From Octopus vulgaris (taxonomy: Eukaryota), in the NCBI GenBank assembly GCA_951406725.2, contig OX597818.1, positions 126,108,001-126,172,000 of the forward strand: DNA of 64,000 nt, in the 5' to 3' direction. Below are positions 4,526 through 50,920 of the stretch, in pieces (positions within the stretch are counted from its first letter, which is position 1; every line of letters begins with the position of its first letter). The translations under genes and the position numbers were made by a program. The notes under the pieces were generated by a model, which did no database searches, was not told the DNA's origin, and was given only the letters and a program-made list of their open reading frames with translations.

Positions 4526-5150
4526 TTAACCCTCCAACGCAGAGTATAGGCCACTTATAGTTGAATTCCATGCCGCATAATGTTTGGCTTCTGTACTAAT
4601 ACTCTGCCATGAATGTCCCCCTTTCTCTAGTTTCTTTTGTGTTGATCTCCGCCACGAGCTCTTAGGCCTACCTCTCCTTCTATATCCAACCGGTTTCCAC
4701 TTTAAAGCACTTTTCGCTACATTTGGTGTGTCTTTTCTAATCGTGCTACCAATCCACTTCCACTTTTTCTTAAATATTTGCTCCCTAATCGAAACTGGAT
4801 TTGTTCTTTGCCATAGCTCCATACTGCTTATGTGTTCGGGCCATCTAATTTTAAGTATACTACGCAAGCATCTGTTGATGAATGATTGTATTTGCTTATT
4901 TGACTTAACTGTTGTTCGCCATGTCTCAGCTTTTACGTTAGTGTTAAAAATTCTTATTTTGTTCTTTATTGAAATTACACTTGCGCTCCATACTTTTTTT
5001 TTAACAGGTGAAAAGCGGTCCTTGCCTTACTTATTCTCGTCTTAATATCTTCGTCGGTGCCGCCTGAAAACGTTATCTTACTACCTAAATACGTAAACTC
5101 GGCTACATCTCCTAGTTCACCGGTTTCTAGTTTAATACGTTCGCTGTTTT
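4526..5150 (-). mobile_element. RTE-clade LINE, RT C-terminal fragment
   Basis: VAEFTYLGSKITFSGGTDEDIKTRISKARTAF (5010-5140) and LRSILKIRWPEHIS...WKWIG...ALKWKP.G.RRRGRPK.SWRR (ORF 4526..4867). Confidence 0.88.
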
Positions 5151-19114: not shown

Positions 19115-19171
<57 letters not shown>

Positions 19172-19175
<4 letters not shown>

Positions 19176-19459
19176 CGATATTTGCCATTTGAATATGGCT
19201 AACCCCTAAGGGTGGATGCTACTGTAGTTTGTAGCCCCAGGAAGATATCTCCTCCAGCTGGCTATAGACACACTATCTGTGTCCTCTCAGTATCTAGAGG
19301 ACACAAATAGTGTGTCTATAGCCAGCTGGAGGAGATATCTTCCTGGGGCTACAAACTACAGTAGCATCCACCCTTAGGGGTTAGCCATATTCAAATGGCA
19401 AATATGCGTCACGATGTGTTACTGCTACTGTTTATAACTCGCTCTGAGATTTATCATTG

Positions 19460-19461
<2 letters not shown>
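19172..19461 (+). repeat. near-perfect 116-bp fold-back element in (TA)n
   Basis: Arms 19172-19287/19296-19412 with 1 mismatch and 1 indel, an 8-nt loop and a tail to 19461. Homologous to 49441-49555. Confidence 0.92.
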
Positions 19462-24489: not shown

Positions 24490-24973
24490 CAACAGTTTGT
24501 ATGTTCCTTCTCTAGCCATGCCTGGCTCATAAGGGCCGGTTTCCCTACCTGAACGGGACGCCGGTCCGTCGCAGGTGAGCTGCAAGATGCAGGAGGAAAG
24601 AGTCAGAGAAGGTTGTGGCGAAAGAGTCAGCAGAAGTTCGCCATTACCTTCTGCCGGAGCCGCGTGGGGCTTAGGTGTTTCGCTCATAAACACACACATC
24701 ACCCGGTCTGAGATTCGAACCCGCGATCCCTCGACCGCGAGTCCGCTGCTCTAACCACTAGGCCATGTGCCTCCACGCACAAATACATACACACACATCG
24801 CCCGGTCTGAGATTCGAACCCGCGATCCCTCGACCGCGAGTCCGCTGCTCTAACCACTAGGCCATGTGTCTCCACGCACAAATACATACACACACATCGC
24901 CCGGTCTGAGATTCGAACCCGCGATCCCTCGACCGCGAGTCTGCTGCTCTAACTACTTGGCCATGTGCCTCCA
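24490..24973 (-). mobile_element. SINE family C with triplicated tRNA-like head
   Basis: Head ggaggcacatggcctagtggttagagcagcggactcgcggtcgagggatcgcgggttcgaatc repeated three times at a 99-bp period. Confidence 0.85.
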
Positions 24974-25458
24974 CAGTGTCTACAGTAGGGATCTCCAATA
25001 ACCGGGCCGCGCACTAGTATCGGCTGTGGATCATTTGGTACCGGGCCGTACAAAAAATATAAGTTTCAAAATTTCATTTATATTTTATTGACTATCGCAG
25101 TCTGCAGAGTGATTTTGCGTTATATATGTATTATGTATATATGTATATATGTATATATGTATTATATATATGTATTATCAAGGTAGCGAGCTGGCAGGAT
25201 CGTTAGCATTCCGAACAAAATGCTAAGTGGTATTTCGTCCGTCTTTATGTTCTGCTTTGAGTCGCTATGTTAATTGTCGATGCACACACGGAAGTATGTG
25301 CATTTATTCACATAGAAATTTCAGATGGAGAATTTTTAAAATGTCTTACAAATCTTTGCTGTGCCACTAATAGATTAGATTTGGAGAATCCGTGTCAGTT
25401 TCTTTTGCTCTCTCTTCGTGAAATCGAGAATTTCTAGGTTTTAGTGCCAACGTTTTGG

Positions 25459-43941: not shown

Positions 43942-44462
43942 CGCTGGCAGAATCGTTAGGACGCCGGGCGAAATGCTTAGCGGTATTTCCTCTGCGGCTA
44001 CGTTCTGAGTTCAAATTCCGCCGAGGTCGACTTTGCCTTTCTTCCTTTCGGGGTCGATTAAATAAGAACCAGTTAGGCACTGGGGTCGATATAATCGACT
44101 TAGTCCGTGTGTCTATCCTTGTTTGTCCTCACTGTGTTCAGCCCCTTGTGGGTAGTAAAGAAATAGGTATTTCGTCCGCGGCTACGTTCTGTGTTCAAAT
44201 TCCGCCGAGGTCGACTTCGCCTTTCATCCTTTCGGATGATTAAATAAGTACCAGTTACGCACTGGGGATCGATATTTTCGACTTAGTCCGTTTGTCTGTC
44301 ATTGTTTGTCCCTTCTGTGTTTAGCCCCTTGTGGGTAGTAAAAAAATAGGTATTTCGTCTGCCGTTACGTTTTGGTCGCCGAGGTCGACTTTGCCTTTCA
44401 ACCTTTCGGGGTCGATAATTTAAGTATCAGTTACACACTGGGGTCGATGTAATCGACTTAAT
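43942..44462 (+). mobile_element. head-to-tail trimer of SINE family B
   Basis: Tail gtagtaaa.aaata joins the internal ggtatttcgtc twice. Confidence 0.85.
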
Positions 44463-44702: not shown

Positions 44703-44902
44703 TACAGTTCTATATTTAAGAGATGAGGAATTATGTATATTATTTACATTTGACGGATATTTGTCCTCATCTTGTTTGTTGTTAACACAACATTTCGGCT
44801 GATATATCCTCCAGCCTTCATCAGGTGTCTTGGGGAAATTTTTAACCTCGATTCTCATTCCTAAGGTATTTTTCGATGTTGTTGTTGTTGTTGTTATTAT
44901 TA

Positions 44903-48217: not shown

Positions 48218-48257
<40 letters not shown>

Positions 48258-48387
48258 TTTGTGGCCAAGCGGCCAAAGATATCAAATGTAATAAACGAAG
48301 ATAATAAAACTTAAAATTAGGGAATGGGTCTGTATTTGTATGTGTATATATATATATGTGTGTATGTGTAGGTATGCATAGGTACAC

Positions 48388-48437
<50 letters not shown>

Positions 48438-49038
48438 ATGTATGTGTGTGTATATATGTGTGTATGTGTATATATGTGTATATAGGGACTAGTGTGCTGT
48501 GTGTGCATGTGTGTGTGTGGATTTGTGTGTGTATGCGTGTATGTGAGTGTATGTGTGTGTATGTGTACATATATTTTTCTGTGTGTATATGTATGTGTGG
48601 TCGTGTGTGTATATATACATGTGTGTATACGTGTATGCATGTGAGTGTGTGTATGTATACATATATGTGTATGTGTAGATATGTATATGTATGTGTAAGT
48701 GTATATATATATATATATGTATATATATATGTGTGTGTATGTATGTGTGTATGTATATGTATATATGTTTGTATGCGTGTGTATATATGTATACATATGT
48801 GCATAGGTATAAGTGAGAATCTCCTTATTTACCTAAAACTCTATTCCCCCTTTTTTTATATATATATATTTTTTTATTTTTTTATTTTTTATTTATTCTT
48901 CTATCTAATTTAACACTGACTCCTTGACCACTCCCCCAAGTATGATATTTTGCGCTATGCCTACCCCCAAAAAGTCCCCCACCAACACCCCTTTAAACCT
49001 GCCTAAATGTATAAATGCCAATACAATTCTTGTTAACT

Positions 49039-49089
49039 AGCTTCCTGAAGATTTCTCTTGAATGAAACAGTTCTAGTCCTGTAGAAGCT
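49039..49089 (+). ncRNA. type I HHR motif in TA-flanked element 48806-49175
   Basis: agcttc-CTGAAGA-tttc tctt gaat-GAAACag ttctagtc ctGTA-gaagct. AATAAA lies just downstream. Confidence 0.75.
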
Positions 49090-49440
49090 CCTTCTATATA
49101 ATAAATTAATTTTACTCTGCTATGTATTGAGTACCTTATTTACTGTGGTTAACCCCGAATCAACCCGGGACCTACATATATATATATATATATATATATG
49201 TATATTGCTATACGAGTGTGGAACAGTGGGTATGATAGGAGCATGCCAAGACATTTAAAACCAAAGGAAAAACATAGATAGGTCGACCATTCATGTCACC
49301 CTTGCAAGAAGCGTTACTGTTGTCACCCCATCACCTGCCACCCGACCACCTGCCAAAGATGGCATCATTATAAAGTAAATGAGCAAATTGCTATGACATC
49401 CACATTTGCATATACGTATGTATAAATATATATATATATA

Positions 49441-49677
49441 TATTTGCCATTTCAATATGGCTACCCCTAAGGGTGGATGCTACTGTAGTTTTTAGCCCCA
49501 GGAGGACACACTCCTCCAGCTGGCCATAGACACACTTTCTGTGTCCTGTCAGTATTTGCAAAGGGAAGTCATCCTTCCCGTCTTCAACTTATGATACACA
49601 CGGACTCGAGTTTCGAGGTATTGACCTCTCGTCAGCGTGTGACAATCACAGTTGTCGCCGAGAATTAGATCTCCTTC

Positions 49678-49681
<4 letters not shown>
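49441..49681 (-). mobile_element. PLE pLTR-like element in (TA)n
   Basis: Carries an HHR; 49441-49555 is homologous to the hairpin arm at 19179-19293. Confidence 0.75.
49597..49641 (-). ncRNA. canonical minimal type I hammerhead ribozyme
   Basis: cacacg-CTGACGA-gaggt caat acctc-GAAAC-tcga-GTC-cgtgtg. All stems are perfect; stem III is the palindrome actcgagt. Confidence 0.9.
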
Positions 49682-49743
<62 letters not shown>

Positions 49744-50874: not shown

Positions 50875-50920
50875 AACACAACGTTTCGGCTGATATACCC
50901 TCCAGCCTTCTTCAAGTATC
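50875..50920 (-). ncRNA. second copy of the SINE-tail HHR (core decayed)
   Basis: gatac-tTGAAGA-a-ggctgg agggtata tcagcc-GAAAC-GTT-gtgtt, within body 50828-50970. Confidence 0.55.

What the first reader, a model, noticed from the sequence alone, without database searches (positions are those of the whole stretch)
49597..49641. Textbook 45-nt minimal type I hammerhead, apparently intact
Perfect 6-bp stem I, CUGACGA, 5-bp stem II with a 4-nt loop, GAAAC-UCGA-GUC. Predicted cleavage is after the C at 49603 (minus strand). The self-complementary ACUCGAGU suggests dimeric cleavage. This is the best candidate for an active ribozyme.
Basis: seen in the sequence. Interest (0 to 1): 0.75.

Follow-up and report, generated by a model that had tools for sequence, protein, structure and literature searches.

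The report
Canonical hammerhead in truncated retrozyme copy
This is a real self-cutting RNA motif of the standard animal type, sitting in one broken-off copy of a young 353-base jumping repeat found hundreds of times in this genome; it is predicted to cut efficiently only as a pair, which this lone copy cannot form by itself, so the locus is ordinary although the family is a tidy test case for how such repeats likely spread.

Summary
Observation confirmed: an intact type I hammerhead at 49597-49641 (minus), predicted cut after C49603. It is not 'minimal' in the field's sense. It has the canonical animal build: 6-bp helix I, 4-bp helix II, 2-bp helix III with a palindromic tetraloop, a conserved outer stem and the conserved tertiary U and A. 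It lies in a solo, 5'-truncated 245-nt copy (49439-49683) of a young 353-bp non-LTR retrozyme; the exact 45-mer occurs 407 times. The dimer idea is supported: the two adjacent middle bases of loop 3 covary (CG/GC), and a natural tandem dimer folds into the double hammerhead (14.5 kcal/mol better than two monomers). This copy has one hammerhead, so it is a poor candidate for activity in cis. Insertions show Penelope footprints: (TA)n targets, two fixed 3' ends 43 nt apart, scattered 5' ends, inverted arms, and arms longer than one unit. This fits Penelope-driven copying of an uncut or circular RNA. Cleavage, circles and the partner element are untested or not found. New member of a known kind; the scan noted analogous families elsewhere in this genome.

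The parts
49597..49641 (-). Hammerhead core with inner stem I, helix II and helix III (the finding)
49590..49650 (-). Full extended hammerhead: outer stem Ib (49650-49645 with 49595-49590; one G-U in this copy, A-U in most young copies) and internal loop 1 (UGU at 49644-49642 opposite U at 49596)
   Evidence: fold, pair probabilities 0.85-0.99 for five of six pairs; conservation and covariation across subfamilies
49596..49596 (-). U1.7, unpaired U seven bases after the cut; inferred tertiary partner of the last A of loop 2
   Evidence: U in 57 of 57 distinct extended motifs (fixed by the search pattern in the 15 loci only); role from PMC11875169 passages
49619..49624 (-). Loop 2, UCAAUA, closing a 4-bp helix II; last A at 49619
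   Evidence: A in 57 of 57 (fixed by the pattern, free); first base U, C or A, so the fifth pair does not covary
49604..49611 (-). Palindrome ACUCGAGU: 2-bp helix III in a monomer, predicted 8-bp inter-unit helix III in a dimer
49602..49603 (-). Predicted cleavage site, after C17 (49603)
   Evidence: hammerhead consensus
49439..49683 (-). Solo 5'-truncated retrozyme copy: about unit positions 273-353 then 1-165 (counted from the cut), about 98% identical to family members
49424..49443 (.). (TA)n run at the element's 3' end
49682..49735 (.). (TA)n run at the element's 5' end
19169..19461 (.). Older (90%) two-armed inverted insertion of the same family without a hammerhead; arms end at unit positions 174 and about 217-220, each running into (TA)n

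Best explanation
The motif is the canonical type I hammerhead of a young 353-bp non-coding repeat family (a non-LTR retrozyme), here in a solo truncated copy; the ribozyme is predicted to cut efficiently only when two units pair, and the family was likely pasted into (TA)n repeats by the enzyme of a Penelope-like element. Shown by sequence: the ribozyme build, the 353-bp unit, arrays up to about 6.5 units, (TA)n targets, two fixed 3' ends, scattered 5' ends, inverted arms, one haplotype per locus. Inferred: read-through transcripts of arrays fold into double hammerheads and cut to unit length; monomers are ligated into circles in which the lone hammerhead is mostly off; a Penelope reverse transcriptase/GIY-YIG protein nicks (TA)n, starts at one of two internal sites (unit positions 174 and 217) and copies across the cut site, giving tandem and back-to-back arms. 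The window copy is a short product of that reaction and is likely a dead end: one hammerhead, no partner in cis.
For: Family: 40 best-scoring candidates almost all 99% identical, 352/353-bp spacing; 407 exact 45-mers; 1610 intact-core motifs of this layout, control 0. Canonical build matches the PMC4209133 definition; covariation in stems I, Ib and II. Dimer: adjacent loop-3 middle bases are complementary in 49 of 57 distinct motifs (CG 30, GC 16; shuffle mean 28.4, 0 of 2000 reach it), and adjacent bases can only pair between two copies. The unconstrained fold of a natural dimer is the double hammerhead, -177.0 against -162.5 kcal/mol for two monomers; monomer helix III probability about 0. 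Insertion footprint in 40 loci: 55 of 61 arms end at unit 172-174 (31) or 215-222 (24), none at the cut site; 39 of 61 arms exceed one unit; 49 of 61 run into (TA)n; 19 of 23 inverted loci use one start site per arm and none uses the same site twice. Units differ by 1.8 (same arm) and 2.6 (opposite arms) against 5.3 bases between loci. Penelope-like RT+GIY-YIG elements with open frames in this genome also end in (TA)n with two ends 38 nt apart. Two internal start sites bounding the 'tail' were shown in vitro for a Penelope-like element (PMC11167929).
Against: No cleavage, circle or transcript was shown. No autonomous element sharing this sequence was found: the only match among 36 Penelope loci was a separate neighbouring insertion. 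Motifs were collected with core-fixing patterns and are related, so the covariation counts reflect few independent events (about three loop-3 changes). Folding energies omit tertiary contacts, and the mussel retrozyme, with a similar short helix III, cleaves from a single cloned repeat at about 0.1 per min (PMC7229834). In PMC11167929 uncut RNA was the main template and cleavage was dispensable in vitro, so arms crossing the cut site do not prove circles. Eight of nine Xenopus retrozyme dimers tested by Li et al. did not cleave. Most older subfamily motifs have a C-A mismatch at the base of helix II (31 of 49).
Confidence: 0.8

Rival explanations
1. Same family and enzyme, but the template is an uncut linear multimer transcribed from tandem arrays. 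No circle is needed and the hammerhead is slow, protein-dependent or incidental to copying.
For: In vitro, the anole Penelope-like element used unprocessed RNA, and hammerhead mutants did not affect insertion. Long arms and shared haplotypes within a locus also follow from homogeneous source arrays.
Against: A dimer is predicted to adopt the cleavage-competent fold, so multimers should be cut. Helix and palindrome covariation across subfamilies 70-90% identical implies selection on the ribozyme. Related animal retrozymes accumulate as circles.
Confidence: 0.25
2. The hammerhead works as a monomer, stabilised by loop 1-loop 2 contacts and the long closing stem, so this solo copy would cut any transcript that reads through it on the minus strand.
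For: Tertiary U and A conserved; G10.1-C11.1 intact in the young subfamily; the motif sits at the tip of a long stable stem (z -4.1); coral and mussel retrozyme monomers cleave at about 0.8 and 0.1 per min.
Against: Monomer helix III probability about 0 and active fold 5.9 kcal/mol above the free fold; covariation of the adjacent loop bases has no monomer explanation; axolotl monomers with short helix III cleave poorly.
Confidence: 0.3
3. The sequence is only the terminal repeat (pseudo-LTR) of an autonomous Penelope-like element, and the copies are its 5'-truncated ends with a minimal PLE hammerhead.
For: Same insertion footprint as Penelope elements; retrozyme-pLTR homology is reported in Xenopus.
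Against: Upstream of the hammerhead the copies continue into more of the same 353-bp unit, never into an ORF: 30 top loci and 40 older loci tested by tblastn, no ORF contiguous with a unit. The motif is canonical, not minimal. True minimal motifs with a different build occur elsewhere in the window.
Confidence: 0.07
4. Satellite DNA spread by DNA-level recombination, with the hammerhead a passenger, or a chance match.
For: Units within an array are alike.
Against: Chance excluded. Copies are dispersed over many contigs with strand-polarised ends, inversions and (TA)n targets.
Confidence: 0.02

Closest known systems
Animal non-LTR retrozymes (Cervera and de la Pena 2020, PMC7229834: parts 2-4 of 6 read, covering results and discussion; supplement not readable. 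Li, Clavereau and Pollet 2026, bioRxiv 10.64898/2026.07.22.740005: parts 1-3 of 5 read)
   Same: Non-coding tandem unit of 150-450 bp with one type I hammerhead, GC under 50% (42%), strongly self-paired (z -5.5), similar size to mussel (350-390 bp) and axolotl (330, 350 bp) units; solo copies are described by Li et al.
   Different: New sequence family in an animal I infer to be a cephalopod; expression and circles untested here. The two-site 3' ends, paired inverted arms and (TA)n targeting were not described for retrozymes in the parts I read, where Penelope mobilisation is a proposal based on co-occurrence and homology.
Canonical animal type I hammerheads, including the newt and axolotl dimer-dependent motifs (PMC4209133 parts 1-2 of 4; PMC6155905 passages; PMC7229834)
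   Same: 6-bp helix I, 4-bp helix II, 2-bp helix III with palindromic tetraloop, conserved loop 1-loop 2 nucleotides; closest to axolotl HHR_Amex2 and invertebrate motifs (2 bp plus tetraloop).
   Different: Sequence differs; older subfamilies mostly carry a C-A mismatch at the base of helix II, whereas the young one has G-C.
Penelope-like elements and their insertion mechanism (PMC8557442 passages; PMC11167929 parts 1-2 of 4)
   Same: 5' truncation, partial tandems, inverted 5' arms, optional tail at one end, microsatellite targets, internal initiation at two sites bounding the tail.
   Different: No RT-endonuclease ORF; tail 43 nt (30-40 reported); hammerhead canonical rather than minimal; no homology found to the ends of the Penelope families sampled.

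Membership tests
Canonical animal type I hammerhead | Conserved core CUGANGA, GAAA, NUH | tested here: met
Canonical animal type I hammerhead | Helix I 6 bp, helix II 4 bp | tested here: met
   sequence; covariation at I.5 and II.2; fifth pair of helix II does not covary
Canonical animal type I hammerhead | Helix III 1-2 bp with small palindromic loop | tested here: met
   2 bp plus UCGA; loops TCGA 18, TGCA 15, TCGG 8, CCGG 4, other 12 of 57
Canonical animal type I hammerhead | Conserved loop 1 and loop 2 nucleotides for the tertiary contact | tested here: met
   U1.7 and last loop-2 A in 57 of 57, outer stem conserved; partly fixed by search patterns; the contact itself is inferred
Canonical animal type I hammerhead | Self-cleavage | not testable with these tools
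   needs in vitro transcription
Rfam RF00163 Hammerhead_1 | Score at or above gathering threshold (34 bits) | tested here: not met
   32.2 bits, E 6.5e-6, full-length match
Minimal PLE hammerhead (min-HHR) | No helix III/loop 3, poorly defined loop 1 | tested here: not met
   helix III and a defined loop 1 with outer stem are present
Minimal PLE hammerhead (min-HHR) | Long helix II with an extra base between positions 9 and 10.1 | tested here: not met
   4-5 bp, no extra base; motifs at 44784-44829 and 50875-50920 do have it
Non-LTR retrozyme | Tandem 150-450-bp units each with a type I hammerhead | tested here: met
   family: 352/353-bp units, arrays up to about 6.5
Non-LTR retrozyme | [quoted passage not shown] | tested here: not met
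   window copy is 245 nt with one hammerhead
Non-LTR retrozyme | No retroelement ORF; GC under 50%; highly self-paired | tested here: met
   no contiguous Penelope ORF; 150 of 353 G+C; circular fold z -5.5, antisense strand similar at -5.6
Non-LTR retrozyme | Expressed as linear and circular monomer RNA | tested here: inconclusive
   only contig-level runs of guessed type were available
Non-LTR retrozyme | Target-site duplication when present | tested here: inconclusive
   cannot be read inside (TA)n
Penelope-mobilised non-autonomous element | 5' truncation, inverted arms, optional tail, microsatellite target | tested here: met
   same pattern in an autonomous family
Penelope-mobilised non-autonomous element | Homology to the terminal repeat of an autonomous partner | tested here: inconclusive
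   none among 36 loci; only 150 of 6136 GIY-YIG candidates were scored

The most novel reading that the evidence does not exclude
The family runs a dimer-gated RNA circle cycle: multimers cut themselves through a double hammerhead selected by its loop-3 palindrome, the monomer circle is safe from its own ribozyme, and a Penelope enzyme dimer copies one circle from both nicked DNA strands, each strand starting at a different one of two fixed sites. That would make the 174/217 pairing of inverted arms a genomic readout of an asymmetric two-strand priming step, with the retrozyme captured through RNA structure rather than sequence homology to its helper.
Probability: 0.4. Interest if true: 0.55.

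Novelty: new member of a known kind. Interest (0 to 1): 0.3.

Why it matters
The locus itself is ordinary: one of hundreds of copies, and a truncated one. The family is useful because it is young and small. It offers a ready 353-nt substrate to test two things that the papers read leave as proposals: that Penelope-like enzymes mobilise animal retrozymes, and that more-than-unit insertions come from circular templates. The covarying loop-3 palindrome gives natural-sequence support for dimer-gated cleavage.

Tried and rejected
Expression: no RNA holder on record was listed; 14 holders were only guessed to be RNA. Contigs of four such runs cover the unit and contain the unit-to-unit junction; one 383-nt contig closes on itself, which tandem DNA explains as well as a circle. 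In a guessed-RNA run the element was covered at a level similar to a neighbouring repeat and the unique flank was not covered. None of this bears for or against expression. Empty-site test: contigs break at the (TA)n runs and no joint skipped the element, so polymorphism is undetermined. Autonomous partner: the apparent link in L064 was a separate older insertion about 600 bases beyond the Penelope end; 3' regions of 20 GIY-YIG loci gave only short matches, E 0.37 or worse; the neighbouring hammerhead repeat had no shared ORF within about 2.7 kb upstream. Host gene: no recognisable long coding frame near the element; intron or intergenic status not determined. Print: searches 'hammerhead ribozyme + octopus', 'retrozyme + cephalopod' and 'octopus + Penelope + ribozyme' listed no paper describing this family. 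The supplement of PMC7229834 and file 1 of PMC4209133 could not be read, bioRxiv supplements are closed, and repeat databases were not available, so prior annotation is not excluded.

Full report
Observation. The minus strand of 49597-49641 reads as described: 6-bp stem I, CUGACGA, stem II, GAAAC, UCGA, GUC, with C17 at 49603. A strict type I descriptor found only this site in the window; 200 shuffles gave 0.015 hits per window at the loosest setting and none at this quality. Rfam RF00163 matches over its whole length at 32.2 bits (gathering score 34). The window is AT-rich and full of microsatellites and comes from a 2.8-Gb genome in 227 contigs. I infer a cephalopod from these traits (recalled knowledge, no call names it).

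Context. The motif lies in a 245-nt stretch (49439-49683) between two (TA)n runs. A genome search gave 2696 candidates, of which 40 were scored, nearly all 99% identical, many spaced 352-353 bases apart. The full unit is 353 bp, 42% GC, in arrays of up to about 6.5 units. The exact 45-mer occurs 407 times, and 1610 motifs fit a looser pattern of the same layout; both controls were 0. Older subfamilies, 70-90% identical, share the unit and its ends. The window copy covers about unit positions 273-353 and 1-165, counted from the cut, so it is less than one unit and has one hammerhead. It differs from its nearest sampled relative at 4 of 248 positions.

Canonical, not minimal. PMC4209133 (parts 1-2 read) defines canonical animal motifs as helix I 6 bp, helix II 4 bp with interacting loops, and helix III 1-2 bp with a small palindromic loop; minimal motifs lack helix III and a defined loop 1. 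Here stem I continues past an internal loop into an outer stem. Among 57 distinct extended motifs from all loci held, stem pairs covary (I.5: AT 30, GC 18; Ib.5: GC 29, AT 14; II.2: GC 29, AT 25), while the fifth pair of stem II does not (TA 52, CA 4, AA 1; shuffles always reach it). The U seven bases after the cut and the last A of loop 2 are invariant; each was fixed by one of the two search patterns but free in the other. These are the bases of the Hoogsteen contact described for full-length hammerheads (PMC11875169 passages). The sequences are related and were picked by core patterns, so these counts are not independent events.

Dimer dependence. The two middle bases of loop 3 are neighbours and cannot pair within one motif, yet they are complementary in 49 of 57 motifs (CG 30, GC 16; shuffle mean 28.4). 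The common loops are TCGA, TGCA, TCGG and CCGG, all self-complementary with predicted duplexes of -8.9 to -14.9 kcal/mol. For a natural two-unit stretch the unconstrained lowest-energy fold is the double hammerhead (-177.0 kcal/mol, against -162.5 for two monomeric folds; inter-unit helix probability about 0.5). In the circular monomer and in the window copy, helix III has probability about 0, and the active fold of the window copy lies 5.9 kcal/mol above its free fold. These models omit tertiary contacts. Published monomers range from poor (axolotl, 6-22% in 1 h) to moderate (mussel, 0.1 per min) and fast (coral, 0.8 per min) (PMC7229834), and eight of nine Xenopus dimers did not cleave (Li et al.). 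So cleavage needs a test, and the solo copy is a weaker candidate than the arrays.

How copies are made. I took 40 loci from the list: clusters on the first two contigs in order, leaving out four already held, plus two multi-copy clusters from the third; L170 and L172 look like one duplicated insertion. Of 61 arms of 60 bases or more, 31 end at unit 172-174 and 24 at 215-222; six end elsewhere and none at the cut site. The 5' ends are scattered from 2 to 304. 49 of 61 arms run into (TA)n and 39 exceed one unit. Of 23 loci with back-to-back arms, 19 use one site per arm (two counted with an arm under 60 bases) and none uses the same site twice; 12 of 16 single-arm loci end at 172-174. An older two-armed copy with the same pair of ends lies at 19169-19461. 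Units within a locus share a haplotype: mean differences 1.8 in one arm (64 pairs), 2.6 between arms (30 pairs), 5.3 between loci (4956 pairs). The window copy ends at about 165, nine bases short of the usual site, at an internal AT-rich run; this is either alternative priming or a small later deletion.

Helper. The genome holds Penelope-like elements with RT and C-terminal GIY-YIG domains, many with an open 781-aa frame. They end in (TA)n at two points 38 nt apart, and L056 has one arm of each. A second young family was also seen. This is the 'tail' of PMC8557442 (passages), which PMC11167929 (parts 1-2 read) traced to two internal start sites on a template RNA, with both DNA strands cut and extended. 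Because arms cross the cut site, the template was either re-ligated (circle) or never cut. PMC4209133 and PMC7229834 propose circles; PMC11167929 found uncut RNA to be the main template in vitro. I put about 0.6 on circles.

Comparison and novelty. It works like, and at family level meets the sequence tests for, an animal non-LTR retrozyme. Circular RNA expression was not testable. It fails the minimal-motif test, and this copy fails the two-unit 'active' criterion. Three library searches listed no description of this family; unread supplements may bear on that. The scan's index holds several notes on other retrozyme families (359-495-bp units) in this genome with the same Penelope reading, which I saw; a look-up with this sequence and near this place returned nothing. 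Those notes are not independent support. An editing signature suggested by one of them was not supported here.

Verdict. Real, canonical hammerhead; ordinary truncated copy; new family of a known kind. Interest 0.3.

Noticed in passing
window 48254-49175 (+); hammerhead-like motif 49039-49089: A second, unrelated young repeat about 270 bases away carries a type I hammerhead-like motif with a 4-bp helix III and a U-U at the base of a 3-bp helix II. 40 of 40 scored copies of its 3' 273 bases are 100% identical (997 candidates). The element is at least 2.5 kb long, microsatellite-rich, without a shared ORF in that span, with inverted arms and (TA)n ends. Much of the 'simple repeat' at 48250-48850 is part of it. 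With its longer helix III it may be the better candidate for monomeric activity.
   Followed up: partly
window 44784-44829 (-) and 50875-50920 (-): Two related true minimal-type hammerheads (6-bp helix II, extra base after the core, no loop 3) in short repeats beside (AAT)n runs; the second has T in place of C3. Rfam did not score the first.
   Followed up: partly
L051-L062 (for example G000:C16:33682000-33687500): Penelope-like family with many open 781-aa frames, a Cys motif before the GIY-YIG domain (Neptune-like by the description in PMC8557442), about 1-kb 3' region with internal repeats, (TA)n targets and a 38-nt optional tail. No hammerhead was found by my pattern in its 3' region.
   Followed up: partly
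L064:1582-3985: Second young Penelope-like family (40 scored copies 99-100% identical over 1.1 kb). Its 3' region holds a hammerhead-like motif with core CCGAAGA and a palindromic helix III near L064:3806-3845, seen by eye.
   Followed up: no
L097-L141: Older subfamilies of the retrozyme mostly have C-A (31 of 49 distinct motifs) or U-U/U-A at the first pair of helix II, where the young subfamily has the canonical G-C. A further subfamily with loop 2 UAAACA occurs in tandem pairs.
   Followed up: no
window 24690-24974 and 43982-44460: Tandem copies of short interspersed-type repeats (99-bp unit with a tRNA-like look; 183-bp unit).
   Followed up: no
window 4526-5026 (-): 166-aa frame that resembles the C-terminal part of a LINE reverse transcriptase protein (resemblance recalled, not searched).
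   Followed up: no
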